From a virus: a stretch of DNA of 64,000 bases. Location of the stretch: IMG/VR virus record IMGVR_UViG_3300033121_000149, positions 1-64,000 of that record. One strand, 5' to 3'. The notes under the pieces were generated by a model, which ran no database searches, was not told the origin of the DNA, and saw only the letters and a list, made by a program, of their open reading frames with translations. A program made the position numbers and the translations under genes. The first letter of the stretch is position 1. Every line of letters starts with the position of its first letter. Positions 6,370 to 33,318 of this stretch are shown here, in pieces.

Positions 6370-6536
6370 AACAAGAAAACATAAGTAACGAGTTATGGTG
6401 CTCGCTATGGAACTCGCTAGGGGTCTCGCTAAGGGACTCGCTAGGGGTCTCGCTAAGGAACTCGCTATGGAACTCGCTAGAGGACTCGCTATGGAACTCC
6501 CTACGGAGGGAATATGAATTTGTGGTTATTATCTAA
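6366..6536 (+). repeat. MKQENIS cassette 4. Minigene (56 aa), 9 repeat units, divergent 3' end (REYEFVVII*)
   Basis: ATGA overlap with GHKL stop; CTCGCTA 12-mers. Confidence 0.8.
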
Positions 6537-6569
6537 TGTACGAAATTATTTAAACAATAGGAGATTATT

Positions 6570-7397
6570 ATGAACTTTATTATTTTACCTAGTTCTTTAG
6601 TATTAAACAATGGTAAAGGTTCTTCTGTTACAATTAAAAAAGAGGACGCTCGTTTTGAAAAAATTATAGAGTTACTTAAGAGTGGAGCAACAGATGAAGA
6701 AATCGAAAAACTTATTAATATCGAAGAGCAACTTGAAAAGGAAGGGTTTACTGTTGAGCATGGTCTTGTACAGATTGATGGCAAACCTGTACCTGAAGTT
6801 ATAGGTCAACGTATCTTGGAGTTTTATAAACTAAACTTACCTTACAAACATCTAGTTAAGTTTGTTCGTAAATTACGTAACAATCCAAGCTTTAATAGTA
6901 TTCAAATGTTGTACAAATTCTTAGAACATAACGGACACCCAATCACTACGGAAGGTAACTTTATCGCTTATAAAGCAGTAAGACCGAACTTCTTAGATAT
7001 ACATACAGGTAAGTTTGATAATAGCGTAGGTAATATTGTATCAATGGAACGTAGTTCAGTTGATGATAATCCAGAGAATACTTGTTCGTCAGGATTACAC
7101 GTTGCTACTCTAGGTTATGCTCAAAGTTTTGGTGGATATGACAGCATCTTGATTGATGTTGAAATCGATCCTGCTGATGTAGTATCAGTACCTAAAGATT
7201 ACGATGGTACTAAGATGCGAACTTGTAAGTATAAAGTAGTAGCTGTTAATACTGCTAAAAGAATTATCGAATCACCTTTAGTTGATTCAAGTTATGCTGA
7301 AGGTTATGATATACCCGATGACAAAGAATGTCCTAACTGTGGAGCTGATGTAGACGAGTTCGATTCTTTCTGTAAAGATTGTGGTGAAGAGTTATGA
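6570..7397 (+). CDS. hypothetical protein (275 aa) with C-terminal CxxC...CxxC zinc ribbon
   Basis: AGGAGA RBS; CPNCG...CKDCG at C-terminus. Confidence 0.65.
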   Translation: MNFIILPSSLVLNNGKGSSVTIKKEDARFEKIIELLKSGATDEEIEKLINIEEQLEKEGFTVEHGLVQIDGKPVPEVIGQRILEFYKLNLPYKHLVKFVRKLRNNPSFNSIQMLYKFLEHNGHPITTEGNFIAYKAVRPNFLDIHTGKFDNSVGNIVSMERSSVDDNPENTCSSGLHVATLGYAQSFGGYDSILIDVEIDPADVVSVPKDYDGTKMRTCKYKVVAVNTAKRIIESPLVDSSYAEGYDIPDDKECPNCGADVDEFDSFCKDCGEEL

Positions 7398-12421: not shown

Positions 12422-12619
12422 ATGAAACAAGTTAATATAAGTGACGAGTTATGGGACTCGCTATGGAACTCGCTATGGTGCTCGCTATGGGACTCGCTAA
12501 GGAACTCGCTAAGGTACTCGCTAAGGGACTCGCTAAGGAACTCGCTAGGGTACTCGCTAAGGAACTCGCTATGTAACTCGCTAAGGAACTCGCTACGGAG
12601 GGAGTATGGAGAATATTAG
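12422..12619 (+). repeat. MKQENIS cassette 8. Minigene (65 aa), 12 repeat units
   Basis: Conserved ends (MKQVNISDEL variant). Confidence 0.85.
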
Positions 12620-12868
12620 CTACGATCTTGTTAATACAACATGGGAGAGTTTATATAAATATACTCTATTAAATCACTATTATTTAAGACAATTACACGA
12701 TGATTTAAATGTACTATATTCAATACGGAGATGTACTGTATGAAAAATATTAGCCACGAATTAAGTAATGAGATATGGATAAACTTAATGACACCTGTTT
12801 CGGGAACACCTACTTTTGATATGATAGACGATAAACTTCGAATGTTGTTAATATGGAGATTACCATGA
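12606..12868 (+). other. Two MxNIS-family minigenes (12606-12743 MENISYDL, 12740-12868 MKNISHEL), ATGA-linked
   Basis: Family N-terminal motif; overlaps. Confidence 0.35.
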
Positions 12869-13677
12869 TAATACTAAATCACTCAGGATTACAAACTATC
12901 ATCAAACCTACTATCTTTCCAGATGGTACACAACAAGTATGGAAACTAGAGTTACTTAAAAGTAATAATTGTAACATAGTATGGAAGTATGAAAATGATG
13001 GAGAGCTTATAACACTTGCACAACTCATTGACTTACTTAAAAACGAAGGTATTCAAATTACTGGTATCTTTATTCCGTTCTTACCTTACGCACGACAGGA
13101 TAAATTAATAAGCAACACAACAACATTCGGACTTAATACGTTTTGTCGTATGTTAAATCAGATAACTGGAAACATAAATGTTTATTCGTTGGATATACAT
13201 AACAATGCTTATGGATCAGTCGAAAACATCGAACCTACTGAGTATATTCTTAAAGCTATTATAGAAAGCGAAGCTAGTCGTATTTGTTTCCCAGACAAGG
13301 GAGCTTTTAGACGTTACCATTCAGTAGTTCCTGATAATAAAGGTATCATAACACTTAATAAAATGCGTAATCAGGAAACAGGTGAGATCGTTGAAATGAG
13401 TCTTATATCAAACGATAAGGCTTTAATTAATGGAGGAGTGTTAATAGTTGACGATATTTGTGACGGAGGTGCAACGTTTATTAACACCGTTAAGTCATTA
13501 CGTTCAAACAGTATATTTCAAGGTTGTAACATTGATCTATACACTACTCATGGAATATACTCAAAGGGTATAAACAATTTAATTGACAACGGTATTAACA
13601 AACTCTATACTACAGATAGCTTTTGTAAGCTAGAAGAAAACAAACGATTAAAGATATTTCAAACGAGGTTTAAATGA
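12853..13677 (+). CDS. Prs-family ribose-phosphate pyrophosphokinase homologue (274 aa), candidate ADPR pyrophosphokinase (Adps) of an NAD reconstitution pathway; alt start 12865
   Basis: IPFLPYARQDK and VLIVDDICDGGAT PRPP-binding motifs; ATGA overlap with downstream Nampt-like gene. Confidence 0.6.
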   Translation: MEITMIILNHSGLQTIIKPTIFPDGTQQVWKLELLKSNNCNIVWKYENDGELITLAQLIDLLKNEGIQITGIFIPFLPYARQDKLISNTTTFGLNTFCRMLNQITGNINVYSLDIHNNAYGSVENIEPTEYILKAIIESEASRICFPDKGAFRRYHSVVPDNKGIITLNKMRNQETGEIVEMSLISNDKALINGGVLIVDDICDGGATFINTVKSLRSNSIFQGCNIDLYTTHGIYSKGINNLIDNGINKLYTTDSFCKLEENKRLKIFQTRFK

Positions 13678-15179
13678 AAGGCTTAATTCCTACACTTTTA
13701 TGTGATTTCTATAAAACTTGCCATCGAGAGCAATATCCACAAGGTACTGAAGTTGTATATTCAACTTGGACTCCACGTTCAGGTAAATTAGCTCCTAATA
13801 TTAAACATGTTGTATCGTTTGGTATCGAAGGATTTATCAAAGAATTTTTATTAGATTACTTTAACGAAAACTTTTTCAGTAGATCTAAACAAGATGTGGT
13901 AAACGAGTATAGTAGATATATGAAGAACTGTCTTCTTATTACTAATCCTCATACACAACACATTGAAGATTTACACGATTTAGGTTATTTACCTTTACAT
14001 ATTAAAGCATTAGAAGAAGGAACTCTGTTACCATTTAGAGTACCAATGTTGACAGTTGAGAATACCGATCCTCGTTTCTTCTGGTTGACAAATTATATCG
14101 AAACATTAGCATCAGCTAATCTATGGAAGCCAGCAACAACAGCTTCTATTGCTAAAGTTTATAATGATGTATTAACAAAGTTTGCAATGGAAACAGTTGG
14201 AGATGCAGGATTTGTACAGTTTCAAGGACACGATTTTTCAATGAGAGGAATGTCAGGTCTAGAAGATTCAGCGAGATCAGGAGCTGGACATTTACTATCA
14301 TTTGTCGGCACTGACACTATTCCAGCTATTCAATATGTAGAAGCTTATTATGGAGCTAATGTTGAAAAAGAATTAATTGGTTGTTCAGTAAACGCTAGTG
14401 AACATTCCGTGATGTGTTGTGGCAGCAAAGAAGGTGAATATGAAACATATCGTAGATTAATTCAAGATGTATATCCAACTGGTATTGTATCTTTAGTATC
14501 AGATACATGGGATTTGTTTAATGTTATTACAAACATTCTTCCACAATTAAAACCTATCATCATGTCACGTAATGGCGGTGAAGGTTCTATCGATAAAGTT
14601 GTAATTAGACCTGACTCAGGTGATCCTGCTGACATTCTATGTGGTGATCCTAAAGCTCCGGTAGGTAGTCCAGAAAGTAAAGGTGTAGTAGAACTTCTAT
14701 TTGAAATATTCGGAGGATCAACTAACGATAAAGGATTTAAATTACTTGATTCACATATCGGTGCTATTTACGGAGACTCTATCACTATCGACAGATGTAC
14801 TGAAATCTGTCAACGCTTAAAAGATAAAGGATTTGCTTCAACTAATGTTGTGTTCGGTATTGGTTCATATACATATCAGTATTTAACAAGAGATAGTTTA
14901 GGGTTTGCAATGAAAGCAACTTCTGTTACTATCAATGGTGTACAACAAGCGATCTTTAAAGACCCTAAAACTGACAACGGTACTAAGAAATCAGCTATGG
15001 GTAGAGTAAAAGTTATTAAAGATAAAGGAACGTTAGTAATGTTAGATGAAAGTAATAACGATCACCCAACGGCAGATGATTTACTAACAACAGTTTTCTT
15101 AAATGGAAAACTTACACGTAGTTCAACGTTTGGAGAGATCAGAGAACGATTAAAAGTTAATTCAAGTGAACTAAAGTAG
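13674..15179 (+). CDS. Nampt-family phosphoribosyltransferase (501 aa), NadV or Namat
   Basis: Size and N-terminus typical of nicotinamide phosphoribosyltransferase family; operon with Prs-like gene. Confidence 0.6.
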   Translation: MKGLIPTLLCDFYKTCHREQYPQGTEVVYSTWTPRSGKLAPNIKHVVSFGIEGFIKEFLLDYFNENFFSRSKQDVVNEYSRYMKNCLLITNPHTQHIEDLHDLGYLPLHIKALEEGTLLPFRVPMLTVENTDPRFFWLTNYIETLASANLWKPATTASIAKVYNDVLTKFAMETVGDAGFVQFQGHDFSMRGMSGLEDSARSGAGHLLSFVGTDTIPAIQYVEAYYGANVEKELIGCSVNASEHSVMCCGSKEGEYETYRRLIQDVYPTGIVSLVSDTWDLFNVITNILPQLKPIIMSRNGGEGSIDKVVIRPDSGDPADILCGDPKAPVGSPESKGVVELLFEIFGGSTNDKGFKLLDSHIGAIYGDSITIDRCTEICQRLKDKGFASTNVVFGIGSYTYQYLTRDSLGFAMKATSVTINGVQQAIFKDPKTDNGTKKSAMGRVKVIKDKGTLVMLDESNNDHPTADDLLTTVFLNGKLTRSSTFGEIRERLKVNSSELK

Positions 15180-15354
15180 TATCTTATATATGCCAGCTAT
15201 GTCTACCAACAACTGGTTAATTATAAGAGACACCACTAAAGATTATATATGGTAGGATGTATAATAGAGTAAGAAAACAGTAAGGTCATGTGGAGCCGCA
15301 TCAAAGTCTTAAAAATTTGTCGCTTACTCACTTCTAACGAATGTTGGAAAACTA

Positions 15355-15378
15355 GAACCGAGAAATCGGTTCTTTTTA
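15355..15378 (+). terminator. intrinsic terminator (GAACCGA-GAAA-TCGGTTC + TTTTTA)
   Basis: Perfect 7-bp stem, GNRA loop, T-tract. Confidence 0.7.
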
Positions 15379-15379
15379 T

Positions 15380-15406
15380 TTGACATATACTAAATATTAA
15401 TATAAG
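15380..15406 (+). promoter_or_regulatory. sigma70-like promoter TTGACA-N15-TATAAG upstream of flotillin gene
   Basis: Consensus -35, -10-like hexamer, followed by GGAGG RBS. Confidence 0.5.
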
Positions 15407-15434
15407 CTGTAATAGAAATACCATAGGAGGTATC

Positions 15435-16853
15435 ATGACAATTTCAACGTTATTATTTTCAGGTTTAGGGTTAGCTTTGTTTGCTATCTCTTTCTTTCTA
15501 GCTGCGTTATGGAGACGAGTTGTTCCAACTAATGAAGTACATATTGTACAAACGAAGGGACAGACAATTAGTTACGGTAAGGATACAGGTAACGGTAACG
15601 TGTATTACCAAGTACCTACATGGGTTCCGTTGTTTGGTATCGAGAAAGTTGTATTACCAGTAAGTGTATTCGACATTGAGTTAAACGCTTACGAAGCTTA
15701 TGATAAAGGTAGACTACCATTCGTTGTTGACGTTAAAGCTTTCTTCCGTGTATCGGATTCATCAACAGCAGCTCAACGTGTTGCTAACTTTAGTGAATTA
15801 AAGGATCAACTTGTTGCAGTAGTACAAGGTGCTGTTCGTGCTATTCTAGCAGGTAGTGACATTGAAGAGATTATGCAAGGACGATCTAAGTTTGGTGATG
15901 AATTTACTAAAGAAGTAAAAGAACAATTAACTCATTGGGGTGTAGAACCTGTTAAGAATATCGAGTTAATGGACTTACGTGATAGCAAATCTAGTAATGT
16001 TATCCACAACATCATGGAGAAAAAGAAATCGATGATTGAAATGGAATCAAGACAAGAAGTTGCTAAGAATATGAAGACAGCTCAGATTGCTGAAATCGAA
16101 GCTAAAAGAGAAATCGAATTAAATAAACAAGAAGCTGAACAACAAGTAGGTTTACGTACAGTTGAAGCTAAACGTAAAGTCGATCTCGCCGAAGAAGATA
16201 GAAAACAGATGATTACAGATCAAGCTAAAACTACAGCAGAGAAAGCCGCTGAAGTATTAAGAGTTCAAAAGGTTAAAGCTGCTGAAATCGAGAAACAATC
16301 TCAGATTATTAAAGCTGAACAAGAAAAGACTACGGCTCTTTTAAAAGCAGAACAGGACAAAGCTACTGCTATCTTAAATGCAGAAGCTTCATTTGAATCT
16401 GTTAATAGAAAAGCAGAAGCTGATCTTAATAAGAATGTTAAAGACGCTGAAGGTTTAAAAGCTATCGGTAATGCTAAAGCAGAAGCTGAGAAACTTATGT
16501 TACTAGCTCCGGTCGAAGCACAAACTAGATTAGCTAAAGAGATTGGTGAAAATAAATCATACCAAGAATATCTAATTCAAATTAGAAAAGTTGAAGCTGA
16601 ACAAAATGTAGGTATTGAACAAGCTAAATCTTTACACCAAGCTGAAATTAAGATCATCGCAAATACTGGTTCAGCTACCAGTGGTATTAAATCAGTAATG
16701 GATATCTTTTCATCACAAGGTGGTGTACAATTAGGTGCAATGTTAGAAGGATTACAAAATACAGATACAGGTAAAGCATTACTAAGTACGTTAGGTGTTA
16801 AAGAACAAGCTGAAACTAAAGCAACTAGTTCAGCTACTGTTAAAAAACAATAA
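15435..16853 (+). CDS. flotillin-like SPFH/band-7 protein (472 aa) with N-terminal TM
   Basis: N-terminal hydrophobic segment, SPFH core, C-terminal EA/KA-rich flotillin repeats. Confidence 0.65.
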   Translation: MTISTLLFSGLGLALFAISFFLAALWRRVVPTNEVHIVQTKGQTISYGKDTGNGNVYYQVPTWVPLFGIEKVVLPVSVFDIELNAYEAYDKGRLPFVVDVKAFFRVSDSSTAAQRVANFSELKDQLVAVVQGAVRAILAGSDIEEIMQGRSKFGDEFTKEVKEQLTHWGVEPVKNIELMDLRDSKSSNVIHNIMEKKKSMIEMESRQEVAKNMKTAQIAEIEAKREIELNKQEAEQQVGLRTVEAKRKVDLAEEDRKQMITDQAKTTAEKAAEVLRVQKVKAAEIEKQSQIIKAEQEKTTALLKAEQDKATAILNAEASFESVNRKAEADLNKNVKDAEGLKAIGNAKAEAEKLMLLAPVEAQTRLAKEIGENKSYQEYLIQIRKVEAEQNVGIEQAKSLHQAEIKIIANTGSATSGIKSVMDIFSSQGGVQLGAMLEGLQNTDTGKALLSTLGVKEQAETKATSSATVKKQ

Positions 16854-16862
16854 GTTACATAC

Positions 16863-16896
16863 GAGCTATTCGGAATTACCGAATAGCTCCTTTATA
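16863..16896 (+). terminator. intrinsic terminator (11-bp stem GAGCTATTCGG/CCGAATAGCTC, loop AATTA, T-rich tail)
   Basis: Perfect inverted repeat followed by CTTTATAT. Confidence 0.65.
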
Positions 16897-16972
16897 TCAG
16901 AAGTAGTTAAATTGGTTATAACGATGGATTGTGAGTCCGTAGTAAAGAGTTCGAATCTCTTCTTCTGAACCA
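16897..16972 (+). tRNA. tRNA-His: tRNA-His (anticodon GTG), no encoded G-1, A73, encoded CCA
   Basis: Hand-folded cloverleaf: acceptor TCAGAAG/CTTCTGA, D-arm GTTA/TAAC, anticodon stem ATGGA/TCCGT, loop TTGTGAG, T-arm AAGAG-TTCGAAT-CTCTT. Confidence 0.7.
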
Positions 16973-17038
16973 TAATATTATACCTTATCGGGTATAATAT
17001 TAACAGAAACGATAGATCTACACCCGATAGGGTATAAA

Positions 17039-17557
17039 ATGAATACAAAAATAAGTAAAGATTTATTCGACAAGTTAACATCTAACAAGCATATATCGTA
17101 TACAGTAGGCTCTACTCTCCATAATAACAGAAAACAAAACAGTGATACAGATTATGTATTAGTACTATCTGATAACGACTTAGTTGAAGATATAACATAT
17201 CAATATAACAACGGTACTGATGATTTTATCATAGTCAATGAAAGTAGATTCAATAGATGTAGAGAAGATGGTAGCGATATTGTATTCTTCGAAGCTGATC
17301 CTATTAAACCTAATAAAAATATTATACGTGCATACTTAGGACTTGCTAAACGAGATTGGAAAGAGTATATTAAAACAGGGAATAAGAAAAAGAAGTATCA
17401 CGCAATTAGGTGTTATTGTATAGCTTCAAGTCTTTATAAACACGGTAAACCTCAACTTGATTACAATGCGTATATTGCAGAAATAGAGACTTCTAATTTA
17501 AAAGATTGTGATTTACCTGATATGTATAACAGTCTTAGGCGAAAATTAAATGAGTAA
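17039..17557 (+). CDS. Pol-beta superfamily nucleotidyltransferase (172 aa)
   Basis: GS-x12-DTD motif (TVGSTLHNNRKQNSDTDYVLVL). Confidence 0.5.
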   Translation: MNTKISKDLFDKLTSNKHISYTVGSTLHNNRKQNSDTDYVLVLSDNDLVEDITYQYNNGTDDFIIVNESRFNRCREDGSDIVFFEADPIKPNKNIIRAYLGLAKRDWKEYIKTGNKKKKYHAIRCYCIASSLYKHGKPQLDYNAYIAEIETSNLKDCDLPDMYNSLRRKLNE

Positions 17558-18185
17558 AACGTACTTTATATCAGATACCCATTTCTTTCATGATAATATC
17601 ATAAGATTCTGTAACAGACCTTTTATTGACATTGAACATATGCACACAAGACTTATCAATAACTGGAATAAAGTCGTAAAACAAGATGATACTGTTATTA
17701 TAGTAGGTGATTTCTCGTTTGGTAAAGCAGAAGATACTCGATCAATTGTTTCACAACTTAAAGGTAAGAAAATTCTAATACGTGGAAATCATGACAAAAA
17801 TGTGAATGTAGGATTCGATCATGTATGTGAAGAGATGATGTTAACAATAGCAAATGAACGTGTTTTAATTTCTCATTACCCTTATAGACATACTAAAATA
17901 CGAAGGTTGTTATTTAAACTAAAACATTTATTAAAAGGTGTTATAATCAGAGATAGAAAAAACTGGCACTATCCAGAAGATCGTGGGTTATATCTTATTC
18001 ATGGACATACACATGATAAAGAAAGGATCAAAGGTCGTATGATACATGTAGGTGTTGATGCTTGGAATTTTAAACCAGTACCTTTGCAAGCAATAGCTGA
18101 TTTAATTGTTCAATCGAGGAGAAAAAATGAAACTATTAGACGACTACTACAATCCTGTTCATGGCTTAGAACTAGAACCAAATAA
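17550..18185 (+). CDS. calcineurin-like metallophosphoesterase (211 aa)
   Basis: DTHF, GDF, GNHD, GHTH motifs in order. Confidence 0.7.
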   Translation: MSKTYFISDTHFFHDNIIRFCNRPFIDIEHMHTRLINNWNKVVKQDDTVIIVGDFSFGKAEDTRSIVSQLKGKKILIRGNHDKNVNVGFDHVCEEMMLTIANERVLISHYPYRHTKIRRLLFKLKHLLKGVIIRDRKNWHYPEDRGLYLIHGHTHDKERIKGRMIHVGVDAWNFKPVPLQAIADLIVQSRRKNETIRRLLQSCSWLRTRTK

Positions 18186-18867
18186 AAATACTGGAGATCG
18201 AAATAACGAAAACGGTATTCTATTCTTAGTTGAGTTTATGTTCTTATCAGAGTTTAGAACAGACGACGATGTAGCTGATAAGTTCAACGACGTTGTTAAA
18301 CGTTTAGAAGTAGAAAAAGGTCTTTATGATAGAGGTGCTCTTGATGGTATGATTACATCTATTAATGGTGTTGACTTACCTAAAAGAACTATTTCCCATG
18401 ATAATATATCAGCAATATCAGCAGGTTCTAGATTAATCAACGATCTAACTAATGGTCAAGAATGTTTCTTTCATCATGATATAGCAGAGTATGGTTTGAA
18501 ACATTTCTTCGTATTTAATAATAACCGTAAAGGATTTCGAGCACCTATGAATCCCGGTAATTATTCTATATGGTTAGCGTTAGGTCAAAGAGCATTAATT
18601 CTACAAATACTATTTTTACCGTTCTATCTTATAAACTTTTTTATAACCAATAATAAACCAGCTAATGAAACGTCGGGAAAACTATTAAACTTTGTTGAAT
18701 TATACCCATTGCGTAAAAAGTTTTTTTGGAGTATGATGTATAAAGTATATACAAGCATGATGCGACGTATGTACGACAAAGATTACATGGTTAAACTAAC
18801 TGAGATTTATTTTAAGGATGAAAAACATCCAGTTAGGATAGCCTCTTTGTTATTCCAAGAGGATTAA
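18127..18867 (+). CDS. hypothetical protein (about 246 aa)
   Basis: GAGGAGAAAAAATG RBS. Confidence 0.55.
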   Translation: MKLLDDYYNPVHGLELEPNKNTGDRNNENGILFLVEFMFLSEFRTDDDVADKFNDVVKRLEVEKGLYDRGALDGMITSINGVDLPKRTISHDNISAISAGSRLINDLTNGQECFFHHDIAEYGLKHFFVFNNNRKGFRAPMNPGNYSIWLALGQRALILQILFLPFYLINFFITNNKPANETSGKLLNFVELYPLRKKFFWSMMYKVYTSMMRRMYDKDYMVKLTEIYFKDEKHPVRIASLLFQED

Positions 18868-18868
18868 C

Positions 18869-19048
18869 ATGAAACAACAAAATATTAGTGACGAGTTGTT
18901 TATACAACTTAGAGGTAATTTAATAAATCAGTTACGTTTTAGTCTGTATGGATTACCTTATTATAAATATCAACATGAATATTACGCATTTTTATATCAC
19001 AAATTATATGATAGTATTTACTTTAATAGTCTAGGAGAAATTTTATGA
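18869..19048 (+). CDS. MKQENIS-family minigene without array (MKQQNISDELF, 59 aa)
   Basis: Conserved 5' end; ATGA overlap at 19045. Confidence 0.4.
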   Translation: MKQQNISDELFIQLRGNLINQLRFSLYGLPYYKYQHEYYAFLYHKLYDSIYFNSLGEIL

Positions 19049-19293
19049 GAAAAGAACTAACAGTATATGTCCCAACAACGGAAGACGGTGAAGAAGTTTC
19101 ATTGAAAGGTATTTCACCTGATGGTAAAATAGTGTTATTCGAATTAGCTGGAGTAGGTAGATTCGCCATCAATTCAGATGAATTAAAGAAAGCTTTTATG
19201 GAAATTGAAATCTTTCAAAGTGTTAATAAAAAACAAGAGACACCTGTTCAGCAAATAGACTTTATCGATTGTAATGTGGAGTTTGGATCGTAA
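19045..19293 (+). CDS. hypothetical protein (82 aa)
   Basis: ORF. Confidence 0.5.
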   Translation: MRKELTVYVPTTEDGEEVSLKGISPDGKIVLFELAGVGRFAINSDELKKAFMEIEIFQSVNKKQETPVQQIDFIDCNVEFGS

Positions 19294-20156
19294 TGAATAT
19301 AACAATACTTGTAGGACCACCGGGGTCTGGAAAATCAACATATTGTAAGACATTACTAAATCATGTTCGTATATCTCAAGACGATATGGGAAGAGACGGA
19401 CATTTAAAACAATTCAATGAAGCATTAGAACAAGGTAAAGATATTGTTGTAGATAGAATGAATTTCAATAAGTCACAACGAGCTAGATACTTAAATCCAG
19501 CTAAAGAAAAAGGATACACTACAACTATTGTAGTATTTTATAAAAGCTTTGATAGATGTTTATCAGCTTGTATGGAAAGACCTGAACATCCTACTATCAA
19601 AACATTACAATCAGCTAACGATGCTTTACATAGATTTTTTAAAGATTATCAATTTGTAACAGAAGATGAGGCTGACAGTATTGTAAGGGTAGATGATGAA
19701 GTGTTTCATAAAAAGAACGCAGTTCTTGTTGATTTAGATGGGACTCTTTGTGATATCGAACATAGATTACACTTTGTTAGAACTGATGGGAAAAAGGATT
19801 GGAAAGGATTTTTTGAAGGTATTATTAACGATAGGTTAAATCAAAACATTTATGAAATTGTTGACGAAGAGTATTTCTTAAAAGGTAGGTCAGTCATACT
19901 TTGTTCAGGTAGACCTGATGACTATAGAGGTATTACTGAAACATGGTTAAAGAATAAAGACGTTCAATATACTAAGTTATTGATGAGACAAAGGAACGAC
20001 TTTAGACAGGACGATATTGTAAAACAAATTATATATGAGTTTGACATAAGACCTTACTATAATGTAAAATATGTTTTAGATGATCGCAACCAAGTTGTTA
20101 ATATGTGGCGTAGAAATGGATTAACATGTTTACAGGTCGCTGAAGGGAATTTTTAA
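19293..20156 (+). CDS. pnk: polynucleotide kinase/phosphatase (P-loop kinase + HAD phosphatase), T4 Pnk-like
   Basis: Walker A GPPGSGKST at N-terminus; DxDGT (VLVDLDGTLCD) HAD motif I in C-terminal half. Confidence 0.65.
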   Translation: MNITILVGPPGSGKSTYCKTLLNHVRISQDDMGRDGHLKQFNEALEQGKDIVVDRMNFNKSQRARYLNPAKEKGYTTTIVVFYKSFDRCLSACMERPEHPTIKTLQSANDALHRFFKDYQFVTEDEADSIVRVDDEVFHKKNAVLVDLDGTLCDIEHRLHFVRTDGKKDWKGFFEGIINDRLNQNIYEIVDEEYFLKGRSVILCSGRPDDYRGITETWLKNKDVQYTKLLMRQRNDFRQDDIVKQIIYEFDIRPYYNVKYVLDDRNQVVNMWRRNGLTCLQVAEGNF

Positions 20157-20157
20157 C

Positions 20158-20319
20158 ATGAAACAAGAAAATATAAGTAACGAGTTAAGGAACTCGCTAT
20201 GGTACTCGCTATGGTACTCGCTAGGGAACTCGCTATGGTACTCGCTAAGGGTCTCGCTATGGTACTCGCTATGGTACTCGCTAAGGGACTCGCTACGGAG
20301 GGAGTATGGAGAATATTAG
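20158..20319 (+). repeat. MKQENIS cassette 9. Minigene (53 aa), 9 repeat units
   Basis: Conserved ends. Confidence 0.85.
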
Positions 20320-20351
20320 TGACTTACTAGTTATGAGAGGTATAATTTAAC

Positions 20352-20600
20352 ATGGCTACAACTACTATAGTTAAACATACATGCGATGTCTGTGGAGATA
20401 CAGCAGATCATTTACAAATTAAATTAGATGTTATATTCCAAACAGAGCAGACAGAAGGTAGAAGTGTTCCTAACTATTTAAGTATTGTAACTATTGACTT
20501 ATGTAAAGAGTGTAAAAAACATTTATTAAAGGGTAATTATATTTTCGCAACAGGAGCCATGGGCTATAACAAGTATCGTTTTTTAGGAGACTTTAAATGA
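20352..20600 (+). CDS. zinc-ribbon protein (82 aa)
   Basis: CDVCG...CKEC. Confidence 0.5.
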   Translation: MATTTIVKHTCDVCGDTADHLQIKLDVIFQTEQTEGRSVPNYLSIVTIDLCKECKKHLLKGNYIFATGAMGYNKYRFLGDFK

Positions 20601-21553
20601 AATCTATAGTTAAGATGGAATTTGGTTCAATTGTTTATGGTACAAATACTCCATCTTCTGATAAAGATTATAAAGAAATATTTATCCCCGATCATCGTGA
20701 TATAATTTTAGGAACAACTAAAGACTCATTACAAGTAACTACTAAATTAGACAAGTTAGCAAAAAACACTGAACAAGATGTTGACATTGAAATGTACAGT
20801 GTACAAAAATATCTTAACTTATTATCACAAGGACAAACAGTTGCTACTGATATGTTATTTGTACCAGAAAAACATATAATAGAACATACATATGAATGGG
20901 CACATATTGTTAGCAATAAACATAAGATTATTAACAGAAACTTGAGTGCGTTTATTGGATATTCAAAAACACAAGCCAATCGTTATGGTATTAGAGGAAG
21001 TCGAATGGCTGCCGTTGAAGGATTCATTAATCTTATTAAAGATTTACCAGACAACGATAGAATATCAGATCATATTACTAAGTTACAAGACTACTTAAAT
21101 AATACAGAGTATTGTTCTATTACTCAAAATAACGATAATATATTAATTGAAGTTTGTAATGCTAAAGTTCCAGTTAGAGATAAAGTAAAACGAGCTAAAG
21201 ATCTTTACGTAAGTATTTATAATGAATACGGAAACAGATCAAGACAAGCGAAGGAAAATCAAGGAATCGATTGGAAATCATTAGGACATGCTGTTCGTAT
21301 ATGTGAACAAGGGGTTGAACTTCTAGATACTGGACATGTAACATTTCCTAGACCTAATGCTAAAGATCTTTTAAAAATTAGAAAAGGTGAATATTCATAT
21401 CAAGAAGTAGCAACTAGAATTGAAGAAGGTTTAGATAAACTAGAATCTAAAATTCAAACATCATCATTACCTGATAAATCAGACATTGATTGGATTAACG
21501 ATACAATATATTCAATATACTCTAAACAAGTTGTTGACAATCAACCTAAGTAG
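20597..21553 (+). CDS. nucleotidyltransferase-fold protein (318 aa)
   Basis: GS-x11-DKD motif near N-terminus (GSIVYGTNTPSSDKDYKEIF). Confidence 0.45.
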   Translation: MKSIVKMEFGSIVYGTNTPSSDKDYKEIFIPDHRDIILGTTKDSLQVTTKLDKLAKNTEQDVDIEMYSVQKYLNLLSQGQTVATDMLFVPEKHIIEHTYEWAHIVSNKHKIINRNLSAFIGYSKTQANRYGIRGSRMAAVEGFINLIKDLPDNDRISDHITKLQDYLNNTEYCSITQNNDNILIEVCNAKVPVRDKVKRAKDLYVSIYNEYGNRSRQAKENQGIDWKSLGHAVRICEQGVELLDTGHVTFPRPNAKDLLKIRKGEYSYQEVATRIEEGLDKLESKIQTSSLPDKSDIDWINDTIYSIYSKQVVDNQPK

Positions 21554-21578
21554 ATATATCTTCTATATGGAGGGTATT

Positions 21579-21791
21579 ATGAAACCAGATGATTTATTAT
21601 TAGAACAGTTACAAAACATTGACAAACAAATAGACGAAGAAGAAAGAGCTTTGTTACACTTAAACAAACAAGTAGGAAATAAAATATCTAAGATAGGTAA
21701 ACTAAAAGAAACTAGAAGTAAAGTAGTAGAAGCTTATCGTCAGTTATCAATTCATAATAATAAAGTGGAGGATAAAAATGAGCGAGTTTAA
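21579..21791 (+). CDS. small coiled-coil protein (70 aa)
   Basis: TGGAGGG RBS; internal Met start chosen over long upstream extension. Confidence 0.45.
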   Translation: MKPDDLLLEQLQNIDKQIDEEERALLHLNKQVGNKISKIGKLKETRSKVVEAYRQLSIHNNKVEDKNERV

Positions 21792-23004
21792 AACGTGCTT
21801 TACTCGAATACGTGAGATTAATCCACACAATAACGCAGATGCGTTAGAAATCGCTACAGTATATGGGTTTCAAGTTGTTGTACGTAAAGGTTCTTTTCAT
21901 CAAGGGGATTTTGTTTTATACATTCCTATTGATTCAGTAATACCTGTTGATTTAGAGTCAATAATTTTCGGACCTGATTCGAAAATTAAACTCGATAAAC
22001 AACGAGTTAAACAAATTCGTATTAGAAAATTTGCATCTCAAGGTATGTTGATAAGTCCGTCTGATATACATAAACTTTTAGAACAACGTGGGTTAAAATC
22101 TAGAATGGATTTCAAATTAGAACACGACTATAAGGAATTACTAGGTATTATTAAATACGAACCCCCTGTACCTGAGTTTCAACGTATTCAAGGTGATAAG
22201 AAAACACGTAACAAACCATTAGAGAATCCGTTGTTCCATAAATATAACGGATTAGATAATGTTAAATGGTTTCCTGATTTATTTAAACCAGACGAAGATG
22301 TTGTTATTCAAGAAAAGCTTCACGGTTCAGCAGCTAGGATATGTTTACTACCTACTACAACACCATCGTTTAGACATATCAAGGATGTTTTCTTAACTAT
22401 CAAGGACTCTCCTGATAAGGTTGCAGTATTACGTCAAACATTCGGATTAATTAAAAGATATGTTGCAGGTAAATTAAAACTGTTACCGAGATATGAGTAT
22501 GGTTATGGAAGTAATAATGTTGAATTAACACATAGAGTCGGATATAAAGGATTTTACGGTGAAGATATTTATGGAGCAACTTTTAAACGAGTAGATGCGT
22601 TCAATAAAATACAACACGATGAAATTGTATTCGGTGAAATTATCGGAGAAGGTATTCAAAAGAACTATCATTACGGACATAAACAACACCACTTTGTTGT
22701 ATATGATGTTAAACGATTAAATGAAGATGGAACATTTACATGGCTTCCACCTGAAGACGTTGAGAATTATGCTAAGAGTAGAGGATTTGATTTTGTTCCA
22801 GTATTGTATAAAGGAAAGTTCAATAAAGAATTAGCTTACGAACTTACTAAAGGTAATTCAGTTTATTGTCCTGAACAAAAGATACGAGAAGGTATTGTTA
22901 TTAAATCGGTTAATTATAACGATCCTAGTATGTCTTCATGTAAACGTGCTTTGAAATGGATTTCGGAAGAATACTTGGATAAAGATAATACAGATTTTCA
23001 TTAG
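21778..23004 (+). CDS. ATP-dependent RNA ligase (nucleotidyltransferase superfamily; Rnl with N-terminal extension)
   Basis: Motif I EKLHGS, III FGEIIGEG, IIIa FVVYDV, IV EGIVIK. Confidence 0.6.
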   Translation: MSEFKTCFTRIREINPHNNADALEIATVYGFQVVVRKGSFHQGDFVLYIPIDSVIPVDLESIIFGPDSKIKLDKQRVKQIRIRKFASQGMLISPSDIHKLLEQRGLKSRMDFKLEHDYKELLGIIKYEPPVPEFQRIQGDKKTRNKPLENPLFHKYNGLDNVKWFPDLFKPDEDVVIQEKLHGSAARICLLPTTTPSFRHIKDVFLTIKDSPDKVAVLRQTFGLIKRYVAGKLKLLPRYEYGYGSNNVELTHRVGYKGFYGEDIYGATFKRVDAFNKIQHDEIVFGEIIGEGIQKNYHYGHKQHHFVVYDVKRLNEDGTFTWLPPEDVENYAKSRGFDFVPVLYKGKFNKELAYELTKGNSVYCPEQKIREGIVIKSVNYNDPSMSSCKRALKWISEEYLDKDNTDFH

Positions 23005-23011
23005 AGGTTAT

Positions 23012-23293
23012 ATGACTAAAAAAGAATTTATTAATAGGATAGATAAAGTTATAAAGAAAACAAATAATTATAATTGGTCTTATACATGTTGGAATATGTA
23101 CGAACATTTCCCTACAGACTTCATTAAAAAATATTATAAAAAATATATAAGAACATTTCTTACAAAACCAAATGAATTAATCAGTGTTGAGTATAAAGAC
23201 ACACGTTACACATACAAAACTATACGTATTTTTTTATTAACGTCATTTAGAGAAGAATGTTTACGAACAGGTATATATAAAGATATTTATTAA
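23012..23293 (+). CDS. hypothetical protein (93 aa)
   Basis: ORF. Confidence 0.5.
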   Translation: MTKKEFINRIDKVIKKTNNYNWSYTCWNMYEHFPTDFIKKYYKKYIRTFLTKPNELISVEYKDTRYTYKTIRIFLLTSFREECLRTGIYKDIY

Positions 23294-23725: not shown

Positions 23726-24616
23726 ATGTCTAAATTAAAAGATTTTTCAATTTTCTTACAAAGTGGTTCTAAGTACATGCCTAGTACCAATCTATCAACA
23801 CACAATCGTCTACCGGCAGGTGTTTATAATGCTAACATGGATAGAGATGGTAATGTGTTTTTAGTAGAGTCTTCATTAAACTCTGACAAATTAATCGATT
23901 TACCTTCAACAGAATTTGAACAGTTAATTGGAGAAATGGAGTTCTTTTTAAAGCCTGAAACGAAATGGAAATTTAAAGAAATGGGCTTTTTATATAAACG
24001 AAGTGCTCTATTACATGGATTACCGGGAACTGGTAAAACGTGTATGGTGGCAAGAGTAGCTAATAAAGTAGTTGAAAACGGTGGTATTGTTTTAATGAAT
24101 CCAGATCCTAGAATGTTATCAGGAGCGTTTCATATTCTTAACACTATTCAACCAGATGTTAATACACTTGTGGTCTTCGAAGAGTTTAATGAAACTTTAG
24201 AAGACTTTGAAGAGATTCTATTATCAATCTTAGACGGTGAAGTTCAGAAAGACAATATTATGTATTTAGCTACTACTAACTTTATTGATCAAATCCCTGC
24301 TCGTATCTTAAGACCGGGAAGATTCAGTAGTGTTATTGAAGTTAAGTATCCAGATATTAAAGCGAGATTGGCTTATTTAAATACTAAGTTAAACGATCTT
24401 AAAAAGATTAATGAACTTGCTAATGTTACAGAAGGGTTCAGTATTGACGAAGTGAAAGAATTAGTATTGTCTACAGAATGTTTACAACAAGATGTTAAAT
24501 ATGTTATTGATCGAATTAAATTCACAAAAGGTATTGTTAAAGAGTTACCTGCTTCGTCGTTAGATAAACGTATGAAGCAACAAGTCCAACTTAATAACAT
24601 GATTAAGAATGGATAG
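23726..24616 (+). CDS. classic-clade AAA ATPase (296 aa)
   Basis: Walker A GLPGTGKT, Walker B VVFEEF, second region of homology ATTNFIDQIPARILRPGRF. Confidence 0.7.
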   Translation: MSKLKDFSIFLQSGSKYMPSTNLSTHNRLPAGVYNANMDRDGNVFLVESSLNSDKLIDLPSTEFEQLIGEMEFFLKPETKWKFKEMGFLYKRSALLHGLPGTGKTCMVARVANKVVENGGIVLMNPDPRMLSGAFHILNTIQPDVNTLVVFEEFNETLEDFEEILLSILDGEVQKDNIMYLATTNFIDQIPARILRPGRFSSVIEVKYPDIKARLAYLNTKLNDLKKINELANVTEGFSIDEVKELVLSTECLQQDVKYVIDRIKFTKGIVKELPASSLDKRMKQQVQLNNMIKNG

Positions 24617-32749: not shown

Positions 32750-32950
32750 ATGAAACTACATTTTTTAACACCTAACTTAGGGAAATTTCTACATGACGAT
32801 GGAGGTTACTCTTTTAGAGATGGTTACAGACTTAGTTTTGTAACAGAAATAATGTATTTAAAAGAATTTGAAAGACCTAACTGGATCTCTATTCAAGTAC
32901 TAGGATTCGGTATAGGTGTAAGTTGGGGTGGTGACGAGGATTGTATATGA
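32750..32950 (+). CDS. hypothetical protein (66 aa)
   Basis: ORF. Confidence 0.45.
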   Translation: MKLHFLTPNLGKFLHDDGGYSFRDGYRLSFVTEIMYLKEFERPNWISIQVLGFGIGVSWGGDEDCI

Positions 32951-33318
32951 AACTAATTATAGCAGGTAGTAGAACTTTACAAGTAGACAATGAATTTATA
33001 AAGAGTGTAATTCTAAATCTATTACCAGATGAAGCTTTAACTGGAATGAAGATTGTATCAGGTTGTGCTAAAGGGATAGATAAATGTGGAGAGTGTTTTT
33101 CTTTAGCTAATAAATTAGATTGTGAAAAGTTCCCTGCTGATTGGGATACACACGGTAAAGCCGCTGGAATGATTCGTAATAAACAAATGGCTGAGTATGC
33201 AGATGTTTTACTACTTATATGGGACGGTGAAAGTAAGGGTAGTAGACATATGAAAGAAACTATGTTAAAGTTAGGTAAGCCTGTTTACGAGGTAGTAATT
33301 AGGAGTTATAACGTATGA
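32941..33318 (+). CDS. SLOG/DUF2493-like Rossmann-fold protein (125 aa)
   Basis: IIAGSR...SGCAKGIDK...ADWDTHGKAAGMIRNKQM...WDGESKGSRHM pattern. Confidence 0.5.
   Translation: MYMKLIIAGSRTLQVDNEFIKSVILNLLPDEALTGMKIVSGCAKGIDKCGECFSLANKLDCEKFPADWDTHGKAAGMIRNKQMAEYADVLLLIWDGESKGSRHMKETMLKLGKPVYEVVIRSYNV

What the first reader, a model, noticed from the sequence alone, without database searches (positions are those of the whole stretch)
16897..23004. RNA repair gene neighbourhood: tRNA-His, two NTases, metallophosphoesterase, Pnk kinase/HAD phosphatase and RNA ligase
Within 6 kb there is a tRNA-His gene followed by Pol-beta-type nucleotidyltransferases (17039, 20597), a metallophosphoesterase (17550), a T4-Pnk-like kinase/HAD phosphatase (19293) and an ATP-dependent RNA ligase (21778). 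The ligase has motifs I, III, IIIa and IV and a roughly 185-aa N-terminal extension. A minimal CCA-adding enzyme lies at 34173. Together these match the enzymology of bacterial Pnkp/Hen1 and T4 Pnk/Rnl1 tRNA healing. That suggests a counter-defence against anticodon nucleases (PrrC, RloC, colicin-like or PARIS/Retron-type tRNA cleavage) and 3'-end (CCA) damage.
Basis: partly seen in the sequence, partly recalled or inferred. Interest (0 to 1): 0.6.

Follow-up and report, generated by a model that had tools for sequence, protein, structure and literature searches.

The report
Phage RNA end-repair gene cluster
An uncultured large phage carries, in 6 kb, the enzymes needed to clean, rebuild and rejoin broken RNA ends; such kits have already been described in phages and are thought to undo host attacks on tRNA, so this is a new example, not a new kind.

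Summary
Window 16897-23004 contains:
- a tRNA-His gene;
- a 172-aa Pol-beta nucleotidyltransferase, shown here to be a trimmed RlaP-superfamily member;
- a metallophosphoesterase;
- a T4-type polynucleotide kinase/HAD 3'-phosphatase;
- a 318-aa RlaP nucleotidyltransferase, the counterpart of T4 NrdC.11;
- an ATP-dependent RNA ligase.

The ligase's N-terminal "extension" is the OB domain that defines the Rnl5 (DraRnl/NgrRnl) family, and it passes NCBI's equivalog cut-off for that family.

Four related viral contigs, with ligases 49-53% identical, keep kinase-phosphatase, RlaP and/or the phosphoesterase next to the ligase. The linkage is therefore conserved, not chance.

This architecture (ATP-dependent RNA ligase + PNK-HAD + RlaP, sometimes a calcineurin-like phosphatase) is already described for phages. 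I rate it a new member of a known kind.

- The tRNA-His is not linked to the cluster in relatives.
- There is no Hen1 or Rnl1. Rnl5 enzymes seal nicks in duplexes, so anticodon-loop repair is an inference.
- The "minimal CCA-adding enzyme" at 34173 has the head-domain motifs but QSPLN where I place the nucleotide-selecting EDxxR motif.

About half of the 6 kb is unrelated filler.

Side finding: 13 copies of a cassette for small ([WRG]xSL)n repeat proteins, 12 of them with a 12-nt repeat array.

The parts
16897..16972 (+). tRNA-His (GTG), CCA encoded, no G at -1, A73. Adjacent to the cluster; membership doubtful.
   Evidence: ARAGORN; Rfam RF00005 63.1 bits; sequence. No tRNA in related loci L001-L004.
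16978..17037 (+). 16-bp hairpin between the tRNA and the first NTase gene, ending 1 nt before its ATG. Possible processing or translation-control element (inferred).
   Evidence: RNA fold -21.9 kcal/mol, z -4.4, 0 of 200 shuffles fold as well.
17039..17557 (+). 172-aa trimmed RlaP-superfamily Pol-beta nucleotidyltransferase ('mini-RlaP'); G24-S25, D36xD38. Its end overlaps the phosphoesterase start by 8 nt.
   Evidence: invariant motifs; 311 profile hits, 20 of 40 sampled hit PF10127; hhalign vs RlaP 97%, E 5.5e-11; the family profile hits the window's own 318-aa RlaP at 1.9e-8; AF2 pLDDT 78 with NTase fold hits HalB, 3c18 and ANT.
17550..18185 (+). 211-aa calcineurin-like metallophosphoesterase; candidate 2',3'-cyclic phosphodiesterase / 3'-phosphatase (inferred).
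   Evidence: PF12850 34.6 bits, phrog_547 2.7e-53; motifs intact; homologues near the ligase in L002 and L003; best PDB match is aq_1665, 1xm7.
19293..20156 (+). 287-aa T4-type polynucleotide 5'-kinase / HAD 3'-phosphatase (Pnkp); Walker A 8-16, DLDGT 147-151.
   Evidence: PF25109 9.2e-38, PF13671 9.8e-13, phrog_505 1.3e-55; PDB Pnkp1 4xrp 3.6e-24 and T4 Pnk 1ltq 8.9e-19; directly upstream of the ligase in L001, L002 and L004.
20597..21553 (+). 318-aa RlaP nucleotidyltransferase (T4 NrdC.11 type); G10-S11, D22xD24.
   Evidence: PF10127 39.1 bits (cut-off 23), phrog_388 8.7e-83; 1599 phage records including nrdC.11; alignment A2; present in L001 and L004 beside PNK and ligase.
21778..23004 (+). 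408-aa ATP-dependent RNA ligase of the Rnl5 (DraRnl/NgrRnl) family: N-terminal OB domain (about residues 9-132) plus NTase domain. Motifs: I K180, III 286-290, IIIa 306-311, IV 370-376, V 391-396.
   Evidence: PF09414 1.4e-21 and PF21189 2.4e-15; TIGR02306 155.7 bits vs 151.15; NgrRnl 5cot E 4.7e-11; motif residues invariant in alignment A4; positions.
18127..18867 (+). 246-aa interspersed ORF that does not belong to the repair set: conserved phage protein with an alpha/alpha-toroid fold resembling glycoside hydrolases.
18869..19293 (+). Two small interspersed ORFs (59 aa at 18869-19048; 82 aa at 19045-19293), function unknown. The 59-aa ORF starts with the MKQQNISDEL leader of the repeat cassette.
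   Evidence: No family hits; not conserved in relatives; leader match.
20158..20350 (+). One copy of the repeat cassette. It comprises a 53-aa ORF MKQENISNEL(xxSL)n..RREYGEY (12-nt array at 20192-20295) and an overlapping 14-aa 'MENIS' ORF. Not an RNA-repair gene.
20352..20600 (+). 82-aa interspersed ORF with CxxC...CxxC cysteines, function unknown.
   Evidence: Translation; no family hits; not conserved in relatives.
21567..21791 (+). 74-aa ORF overlapping the ligase start by 14 nt. Its sequence looks like a coiled coil (my reading, not computed). Function unknown.
   Evidence: no family hits for the longer ORF 21486-21791.

Best explanation
The region holds a phage RNA end-healing, end-rebuilding and sealing kit, interspersed with unrelated small genes.

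Proposed sequence of events; the enzyme family assignments are shown, the order and the substrates are inferred:
1. A host ribonuclease cuts a tRNA or another structured RNA, leaving a 2',3'-cyclic phosphate (or 3'-phosphate) and a 5'-OH.
2. The HAD domain of the T4-type Pnkp removes the 3' phosphate. The metallophosphoesterase may help, acting as a cyclic phosphodiesterase or phosphatase. The Pnkp kinase domain phosphorylates the 5'-OH.
3. If the nuclease also removed one or two nucleotides, one of the two RlaP nucleotidyltransferases adds one or two NMPs to the 3'-OH.
4. The Rnl5 ligase is adenylylated on K180, transfers AMP to the 5'-phosphate and seals the 3'-OH/5'-PO4 nick.

The genes from 17039 to 23004 are co-directional and mostly overlap or abut. 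No terminator-like site lies on their strand. They are probably expressed together early in infection.

The likely benefit is keeping translation running when abortive-infection tRNases fire.
For: - Family assignments above curated cut-offs for Pnkp, RlaP, MPE and Rnl5, with all catalytic motifs present.
- Solved relatives are RNA repair enzymes: Pnkp1 of the Pnkp1-Rnl-Hen1 complex and T4 Pnk; NgrRnl and T4 Rnl2.
- Conserved linkage in four related viral contigs: RlaP-PNK-ligase in L001 and L004, MPE..PNK-ligase in L002, and MPE..RlaP-like..ligase in L003. In Caulobacter phage CcrColossus an NTase gene lies about 1.4 kb upstream of the ligase.
- Gene spacing from -59 to +1 nt, and no + strand terminator-like site inside the block.
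- Literature: RlaP adds one or two NMPs to RNA 3'-OH, prefers damaged RNA, and restores aminoacylation of over-damaged tRNA (PMC12776372). RlaP, PNK-HAD, calcineurin-like phosphatases and ATP-dependent RNA ligases co-occur in large phages and are read as counter-measures to tRNA-cleaving defences (PMC7824862, section 3.4.9).
Against: - No biochemistry, and no known host or host nuclease.
- Characterised Rnl5 enzymes seal nicks in duplexes and are not known to seal anticodon loops (abstract of PMC4408790). The true substrate may be a stem nick, rRNA or an RNA-DNA hybrid.
- MPE linkage is patchy: absent within 10 kb of the ligase in L001 and L004. Related calcineurin-like phage enzymes are also proposed to degrade signalling nucleotides (PMC7824862).
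- The mini-RlaP has few close homologues and none in the related loci. Its nearest solved fold is HalB, which makes oligo-dA rather than repairing RNA.
- Roughly half the interval is unrelated ORFs.
- In Aeromonas T4-like phages the same ligase family stands alone.
Confidence: 0.75

Rival explanations
1. The ligase and Pnkp serve nucleic-acid transactions other than tRNA repair. Candidates are sealing RNA-terminated nicks in RNA-DNA hybrids during replication, recombination or repair, or repairing phage mRNA or host rRNA. The phosphoesterase would then be a ligase-associated DNA-damage nuclease or phosphatase.
For: - Rnl5 enzymes seal duplex nicks whose 3'-OH strand is RNA (abstract of PMC4408790).
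- The MPE has a faint similarity to the ligase-associated PdeM model TIGR04123, at 20.7 bits.
- The cluster sits among replication and nucleotide-metabolism genes: RNR at 25068, PD-(D/E)XK at 27156, Erf at 28771, DnaB at 30105 and PolB at 35628.
- T4 Pnkp also acts on DNA ends (own knowledge).
Against: - The PdeM score of 20.7 bits is far below its cut-off of 150.
- RlaP was found to act on RNA only among cellular macromolecules (PMC12776372).
- The conserved RlaP-PNK-ligase triad is the signature described for RNA repair systems (PMC7824862).
Confidence: 0.12
2. Only the Pnkp-RlaP-Rnl5 core is a repair unit. The upstream mini-RlaP/phosphoesterase pair is a separate two-gene module with another job. 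One possibility is degrading or forging nucleotide signals of host immunity, for example a phosphodiesterase against cyclic nucleotides, or a HalB-like NTase making oligonucleotide decoys. The pair would then merely lie nearby in a shuffled early region.
For: - The two genes overlap by 8 nt and are separated from Pnkp by three unrelated ORFs.
- The mini-RlaP is absent from related loci, and the MPE from two of four.
- The best solved fold match of the mini-RlaP is Hailong HalB, E 7e-5, TM about 0.5.
- Calcineurin-like phage enzymes are proposed as anti-signal phosphodiesterases (PMC7824862).
- Repeat cassettes flank modules in this region, which fits shuffling.
Against: - The mini-RlaP is sequence-related to RlaP, not specifically to HalB. 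It has no PADLOC hit.
- The MPE lies within 4.5 kb of the ligase in the window, L002 and L003.
- Calcineurin-like phosphatases are documented partners of RNA ligases, for example in CthPnkp (abstract of PMC2190708).
Confidence: 0.25
3. The co-location is coincidental. These are independent accessory genes that accumulate in the hyperplastic early region of large phages and do not cooperate.
For: - Many unrelated small ORFs are interspersed.
- In Aeromonas T4-like phages the Rnl5-type ligase is not next to PNK or RlaP.
- In Erythrobacter phage L02 no ligase or PNK is annotated near the RlaP.
Against: - Adjacent PNK-ligase in three of four independent relatives, and RlaP-PNK-ligase in two.
- The enzymes' chemistries are complementary.
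- The association has been established across genomes in the literature (PMC7824862, PMC12776372).
Confidence: 0.05

Closest known systems
Phage and bacterial RlaP-containing RNA repair systems (Burroughs & Aravind 2016, as summarised in PMC7824862; PfRlaP/PaRlaP in PMC12776372)
   Same: Same component set: ATP-dependent 5'-phosphate RNA ligase, PNK fused to a HAD phosphatase, an RlaP Pol-beta NTase, and an optional calcineurin-like phosphatase. Same proposed logic of heal, add back lost nucleotides, then seal.
   Different: The biochemically studied RlaPs sit in RtcB-RtcA operons of Pseudomonas. Here the partner is an Rnl5 ligase. There are two RlaP-superfamily paralogues, one of them a 172-aa trimmed form, and the cluster is interrupted by unrelated ORFs.
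Rnl5 family RNA ligases: Deinococcus radiodurans DraRnl (DRB0094) and Naegleria gruberi NgrRnl (PDB 5cot)
   Same: N-terminal OB domain followed by the nucleotidyltransferase domain, with no C-terminal domain. Passes TIGR02306. NgrRnl is the best solved relative.
   Different: 408 aa against 340 aa for NgrRnl. Compared with its closest relatives it has an extra insertion of about 23 aa after motif I (around residues 205-235). Activity is untested. It is phage-encoded and linked to Pnkp and RlaP.
Bacteriophage T4 Pnkp + Rnl1 tRNA-Lys repair (counter to PrrC), and T4 Rnl2 and NrdC.11
   Same: Pnkp has the same two-domain architecture (P-loop kinase + DxDxT phosphatase; T4 Pnk 1ltq at E 8.9e-19). 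The 318-aa NTase corresponds to T4 NrdC.11. The NTase domain of the ligase resembles Rnl2 (2hvq, E 1.3e-6).
   Different: No Rnl1-type ligase. The ligase is Rnl5, not Rnl1 or Rnl2. In the Aeromonas T4-like phage examined, the corresponding ligase is not next to PNK or an NTase, whereas here the genes are clustered.
Bacterial Pnkp/Hen1 and Pnkp1-Rnl-Hen1 (PDB 4xrp) RNA repair complexes
   Same: Pnkp1 is the best solved relative of the kinase-phosphatase (E 3.6e-24). A separate ligase polypeptide is used, as in Pnkp1-Rnl-Hen1.
   Different: No Hen1 methyltransferase was found among the ORFs scanned. The single-chain kinase/metallophosphatase/ligase Pnkp is absent (TIGR04075 at 16.4 bits vs 750). 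Repair would therefore not leave the 2'-O-methyl mark that blocks re-cleavage.
Class II CCA-adding enzymes / poly(A) polymerases (PF01743), for the 211-aa NTase at 34173
   Same: Head-domain motif A (GGCVRD...DYD) and motif B (DFTIN); PF01743 at 24.1 bits against a cut-off of 23.
   Different: About half the length, with no body or tail domains. The position I equate with the nucleotide-templating EDxxR motif reads QSPLN. Closest families are short phage NTases of unknown function (phrog_4400, phrog_1614).

Membership tests
Rnl5 (DraRnl/NgrRnl) RNA ligase | N-terminal OB-type domain preceding the nucleotidyltransferase domain | tested here: met
   PF21189 PHA02142 OB-fold at residues 9-92, 2.4e-15. 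Residues 11-132 align to NgrRnl 13-128.
Rnl5 (DraRnl/NgrRnl) RNA ligase | Covalent nucleotidyltransferase motifs I, III, IIIa, IV and V with the motif I lysine | tested here: met
   K180 in EKLHG, GEIIG 286-290, FVVYDV 306-311, REGIVIK 370-376, ALKWIS 391-396. K180, E287, D310, R370, E371 and K393 are invariant in six relatives.
Rnl5 (DraRnl/NgrRnl) RNA ligase | Score above the curated equivalog cut-off of TIGR02306 RNA_lig_DRB0094 | tested here: met
   155.7 bits against a cut-off of 151.15, covering residues 9-402. The margin is narrow.
Rnl5 (DraRnl/NgrRnl) RNA ligase | Seals 3'-OH(RNA)/5'-PO4 nicks in duplexes with ATP | not testable with these tools
   Needs enzyme assays.
T4-type polynucleotide kinase-phosphatase (Pnkp) | N-terminal P-loop 5'-kinase domain with Walker A GxxGxGK[ST] | tested here: met
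   GPPGSGKST at 8-16; PF13671 9.8e-13; phrog_505 covers residues 2-287.
T4-type polynucleotide kinase-phosphatase (Pnkp) | C-terminal DxDxT (HAD) 3'-phosphatase domain | tested here: met
   DLDGT at 147-151; PF25109 HAD_PNKP 9.2e-38 over 142-287; aligns to T4 Pnk 157-301.
RlaP (PF10127) nucleotidyltransferase: 318-aa protein | Pfam gathering score, and the Pol-beta GS...DxD active site | tested here: met
   39.1 bits against a cut-off of 23. G10, S11, D22 and D24 are invariant.
RlaP (PF10127) nucleotidyltransferase: 318-aa protein | Gene neighbourhood with an RNA ligase | tested here: met
   About 0.2 kb upstream of the ligase here. Adjacent to PNK and ligase in L001 and L004.
RlaP (PF10127) nucleotidyltransferase: 172-aa protein | Pfam gathering score for PF10127 | tested here: not met
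   16.8 bits against a cut-off of 23. I therefore file it only as a trimmed RlaP-superfamily relative. Support: 20 of 40 family members pass at E <= 0.001; hhalign 97%; hmmsearch 1.9e-8 to the window's RlaP.
Bacterial Pnkp/Hen1 system | Single polypeptide with kinase + metallophosphatase + ligase domains | tested here: not met
   TIGR04075 at 16.4 bits against a cut-off of 750. The domains lie on separate proteins.
Bacterial Pnkp/Hen1 system | Hen1 2'-O-methyltransferase partner | tested here: not met
   No methyltransferase family among about 40 + strand ORFs of the window scanned with Pfam. The structural genes on the - strand were scanned with PHROGs only, and small ORFs were not all scanned.
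T4 Pnk/Rnl1 tRNA repair | Rnl1-type ligase with a tRNA-specific C-terminal domain | tested here: not met
   The ligase hits only PF09414/PF21189, TIGR02306 and weakly Rnl2. The protein ends right after motif V.
Class II CCA-adding enzyme (for 34173-34808) | Head domain motifs A and B | tested here: met
   GGCVRD 36-41, DYD 50-52, DFTIN 109-113. PF01743 at 24.1 bits against a cut-off of 23.
Class II CCA-adding enzyme (for 34173-34808) | Motif D EDxxR nucleotide-templating residues, plus neck, body and tail domains for tRNA binding | tested here: not met
   The position I equate with motif D reads QSPLN (141-145), and the protein ends at residue 211. The placement is by eye against the consensus I recall; BLASTP to a remembered E. 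coli Cca sequence aligned only motif A.

The most novel reading that the evidence does not exclude
The phage carries a two-tier 'rebuild' capacity that has not been described. It would comprise two RlaP-superfamily NTases with different nucleotide or substrate preferences. One is a 172-aa minimal form translationally coupled to a metallophosphoesterase. Working with Pnkp and an Rnl5 ligase, they would restore tRNAs from which RloC-like 'smart' nucleases have excised nucleotides.

A more speculative extension concerns the ([WRG]xSL)n leader ORFs. They are rich in rare codons and are translationally coupled to downstream genes, including one copy inside this cluster and one directly before the 211-aa NTase. 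They might act as sensors of tRNA availability that tune expression when tRNAs are attacked.
Probability: 0.1. Interest if true: 0.7.

Novelty: new member of a known kind. Interest (0 to 1): 0.3.

Why it matters
The cluster adds an uncultured, low-GC (about 32%) large-phage lineage to the list of viruses that carry a complete RNA heal, rebuild and seal kit. It also gives a natural pairing of an Rnl5 ligase with Pnkp and RlaP. The physiological substrates of Rnl5 ligases are unknown, and RlaP was characterised biochemically only in a 2025 preprint. A compact phage cluster with conserved synteny is therefore a convenient system for asking what Rnl5 seals in vivo and whether RlaP really counters nucleotide-excising tRNases. 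It does not change the current picture of phage counter-defence.

Tried and rejected
- Megablast of 16800-23100 against 50,697 phage records found no match. The phage has no close sequenced relative there.
- Rfam E-value scan of 12-36 kb found only the tRNA.
- The promoter scan was not above shuffles: 47 sites against 52 expected. No promoter claim is made.
- Pairwise BLASTP and a shallow three-sequence profile failed to link the 172-aa NTase to RlaP. A 40-sequence profile was needed.
- PADLOC gave no hit for any repair protein.
- The HalB and aminoglycoside-NTase fold matches of the 172-aa model have TM of only about 0.3-0.55. I treat them as generic Pol-beta fold resemblance.
- A profile of the NrdC.11-type RlaPs found no solved structure by sequence.
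- The 246-aa ORF was considered as a possible new repair component and rejected. Its homologues sit in unrelated contexts and its fold resembles glycoside-hydrolase toroids.
- tRNA linkage was rejected.
- The motif CGRTAGGGTATAA near the tRNA is not enriched in the window.
- Burroughs & Aravind 2016 could not be read because it is not held. It is cited only through PMC7824862 and PMC12776372.
- A literature search for the 12-nt arrays found nothing relevant.
- I considered that the arrays might be non-coding DNA or RNA elements, because 8 of 12 nt are invariant and the codons are rare. I largely rejected this: other phages keep the peptide pattern with different codons.

Full report

Yes. ARAGORN finds one tRNA in the 64-kb window, tRNA-His(GTG) at 16897-16972. 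Rfam confirms it at 63.1 bits. Downstream, every ORF of note is on the + strand. Domain searches against Pfam, PHROGs and NCBIfam give:

| Coordinates | Size | Assignment | Key scores |
|---|---|---|---|
| 17039-17557 | 172 aa | weak RlaP-like NTase | PF10127 16.8 bits, below the cut-off of 23 |
| 17550-18185 | 211 aa | calcineurin-like metallophosphoesterase (MPE) | PF12850 34.6 bits; phrog_547 2.7e-53 |
| 19293-20156 | 287 aa | P-loop kinase + HAD_PNKP phosphatase | PF25109 9.2e-38; phrog_505 'polynucleotide kinase' 1.3e-55 |
| 20597-21553 | 318 aa | RlaP | PF10127 39.1 bits vs 23; phrog_388 8.7e-83 |
| 21778-23004 | 408 aa | RNA ligase | PF09414 at 174-394; PHA02142 OB-fold PF21189 at 9-92 |

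The catalytic motifs can be read directly:
- Pnkp: Walker A GPPGSGKST (8-16) and DLDGT (147-151).
- Ligase: EK180LHG, GEIIG, FVVYDV, REGIVIK, ALKWIS.
- MPE: DTHFFH, GDFSFG, GNHD, GHTH.
- RlaP: G10-S11 and D22xD24.

Genes from 17039 to 23004 overlap or abut, with spacing of -59 to +1 nt. The one exception is a 224-nt stretch before the ligase, which itself holds a 74-aa ORF. No terminator-like site lies on the + strand inside the block.

**2. What the two uncertain pieces are**

They do.
- The best solved relative is Naegleria NgrRnl (5cot, E 4.7e-11). Residues 11-132 align to its N-terminal domain, residues 13-128.
- The protein passes NCBI's equivalog model for the Deinococcus DRB0094 ligase: TIGR02306, 155.7 bits against a cut-off of 151.15.
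- T4 Rnl2 is a weaker relative of the NTase domain.

*The 172-aa NTase.* Pairwise comparison and a three-sequence profile were inconclusive.
- An exhaustive profile search found 311 relatives.
- Of 40 sampled, 20 individually hit PF10127 RlaP.
- The 40-sequence profile aligns to NrdC.11-type RlaPs with 97% probability, E 5.5e-11.
- It hits the window's own 318-aa RlaP at 1.9e-8.
- Its AlphaFold model (pLDDT 78) has a Pol-beta fold. Nearest solved structures are HalB, 3c18 and aminoglycoside NTases, at TM of about 0.3-0.55.

I call it a trimmed RlaP-superfamily NTase, not a certified RlaP.

**3. Is the clustering meaningful?**

The region has no near-identical relative among 50,697 phage records. 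A scan of IMG/VR found four contigs whose ligases are 49-53% identical. Their neighbourhoods:

| Locus | Order around the ligase |
|---|---|
| L004 | RlaP - PNK - ligase, contiguous |
| L001 | RlaP - one ORF - PNK - ligase |
| L002 | MPE ... PNK - ligase |
| L003 | MPE - RNR - divergent RlaP-like ... ligase |

Further points:
- Caulobacter phage CcrColossus has an NTase gene about 1.4 kb upstream of its ligase.
- The PNK-RlaP-Rnl5 core is therefore a conserved linkage. MPE is a frequent but not constant neighbour.
- The mini-RlaP, the 246-aa ORF and the small ORFs are specific to this phage.
- No related locus has a tRNA nearby, so the tRNA-His adjacency looks incidental.
- The same ligase family can also stand alone, as in Aeromonas T4-like phages.

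**4. Mechanism**

Shown: family membership and intact active sites.

Inferred from those families:
1. Pnkp phosphorylates 5'-OH ends and removes 2',3'-cyclic or 3' phosphates.
2. The MPE may add cyclic phosphodiesterase or phosphatase capacity. Calcineurin-type domains do this in CthPnkp (abstract of PMC2190708) and are noted in some jumbo phages (PMC7824862).
3. The RlaPs add one or two NMPs to a 3'-OH. This was demonstrated for Pseudomonas RlaPs, which restored aminoacylation of over-trimmed tRNA (PMC12776372).
4. Rnl5 seals the 3'-OH/5'-PO4 junction through a lysyl-AMP intermediate.

The biological reading is reversal of tRNA cleavage by abortive-infection nucleases. The RlaP step would answer nucleotide-excising enzymes such as RloC. 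This is the standard interpretation (PMC7824862 section 3.4.9; PMC12776372).

One qualification matters. NgrRnl seals nicks in duplexes whose 3'-OH strand is RNA (abstract of PMC4408790). The in vivo substrate of an Rnl5 ligase may therefore not be an anticodon loop.

**5. Comparison with known systems**

- The cluster works like T4 Pnkp/Rnl and like the RlaP-containing repair operons.
- It is a member of the Rnl5, T4-Pnkp and RlaP families.
- It is not a Pnkp/Hen1 system. TIGR04075 scores 16.4 bits against 750, and no methyltransferase was found in the ORFs scanned.
- It has no Rnl1.
- The '34173 minimal CCA-adding enzyme' is a 211-aa PolyA_pol head-domain NTase with motifs A and B. Where I place motif D (EDxxR) it reads QSPLN, and the tRNA-binding body and tail are absent. 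The motif placement rests on my own knowledge of class II enzymes. Its closest families are short phage NTases of unknown function. The CCA claim is therefore not supported, though it is not excluded.

**6. Novelty and score**

The architecture is described in the literature, and the component families are populous: 273 phage records have a related ligase and 1599 a related RlaP.

New here are the lineage, the Rnl5 partner in a tight RlaP-PNK-ligase arrangement, and the second, miniature RlaP paralogue coupled to the phosphoesterase. That makes it a new member of a known kind. Interest is about 0.3.

**7. Side finding**

The 53-aa ORF inside the cluster (20158-20319) is one of 13 copies of a cassette on the + strand between 0.6 and 34.2 kb. 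Its parts are:
- a leader, ATG AAA CAA GAA AAT ATA AGT GAC GAG TTA (MKQENISDEL);
- (NNN NNN TCG CTA)n, with 1 to about 18 units;
- the ending ...RREYGEY*;
- overlapping that end, GGAGGGAGT-ATG-GAG-AAT-ATT, which starts a second ORF beginning 'MENIS.EL'.

One copy supplies the start of the 211-aa NTase at 34173.

The array codons are rare in this genome: TCG is 6% of Ser, CTA 13% of Leu, AGG 3% and CGG 0.2% of Arg.

Other viral contigs encode the same peptide pattern with different codons: (SV[WGR][ND])n in L016/L018 and ([WRG]xSL)n with AGT CTC in L022. These are therefore real small repeat proteins. They have no Pfam family.

Their function is unknown. Their dispersed identical copies may explain the shuffled gene order of this cluster. 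They also explain why short-read assemblies of this phage break exactly at them.

Noticed in passing
window, leader-ORF starts at 602, 2038, 2881, 6366, 8214, 8994, 11350, 12422, 18869, 20158, 24811, 26880, 34121 (all + strand); arrays e.g. 2066-2287, 20192-20295: Thirteen copies of a cassette. Each has a small ORF MKQENISDEL-([WRGYE][NDYVC]SL)n-RREYGEY (the copy at 18869 has only the leader, no array). In most copies an overlapping RBS and ATG then start a second small ORF, 'MENIS.EL...'. The repeat is a 12-nt tandem array, ACTCGCTA plus 4 variable nt, 1 to about 18 units. An 18-mer from it has 105 matches against 0 expected. The codons used are rare in this genome. The same peptide pattern with different codons occurs in other viral contigs (L016/L018 with SVxx; L022 with at least 16 such ORFs), so it is a real protein family. 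It has no Pfam model. Function unknown. It may mediate module shuffling or translational coupling.
   Followed up: partly
It reads QSPLN where I place the EDxxR templating motif, and it lacks body and tail domains. Related short NTases occur in Bacillus, Listeria, Moorella and Stenotrophomonas phages.
   Followed up: partly
[not shown]
   Followed up: partly
window 16896-16972: The tRNA-His lacks an encoded G-1 (A at -1). It has an A73 discriminator and a 9-nt D-loop, like the G-1-less tRNA-His of some alphaproteobacteria (PMC3064791). However, it has U1-A72 instead of G1-U72. Many of the best phage matches of the RlaP and ligase are from phages of alphaproteobacteria, so the host may be a low-GC alphaproteobacterium. 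This is a hint only.
   Followed up: partly
window 16978-17037: A 16-bp hairpin (-21.9 kcal/mol, z -4.4) fills the spacer between the tRNA-His and the first NTase gene, ending just before its ATG. A separate terminator-like hairpin at 16863-16889 precedes the tRNA.
   Followed up: partly
window 12853-16853 and 32941-33318: Upstream neighbours suggest other counter-defence or metabolic functions. They are a ribose-phosphate pyrophosphokinase-like protein (12853-13677), a nicotinamide phosphoribosyltransferase (13674-15179; NAD+ salvage) and an SPFH/Band-7 protein (15435-16853). A YAcAr SLOG-domain protein lies at 32941-33318.
   Followed up: no
window 4528-7397: rIIA-like (4528-6369) and rIIB-like (6570-7397) genes are separated by a repeat cassette (6366-6536). 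The rIIB-like ORF matches only the C-terminal fifth of the PHROG rIIB profile.
   Followed up: no
window 23726-24616: The AAA ATPase downstream of the ligase has PADLOC hits to IetA (4e-11) and TRIP13-like models. A homologue (31% identity) is present in related locus L003.
   Followed up: no
window 21778-23004, protein residues about 205-235: The ligase carries an insertion of about 23 aa after motif I that is absent from its four closest relatives.
   Followed up: no
L007, L008 (Logan contigs identical to window about 12593-20187): Independent short-read assemblies of the same phage (runs SRR32380191, SRR32380200 and SRR32380201) end at the 12-nt arrays. The arrays therefore fragment assemblies and are probably under-represented in databases.
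   Followed up: no
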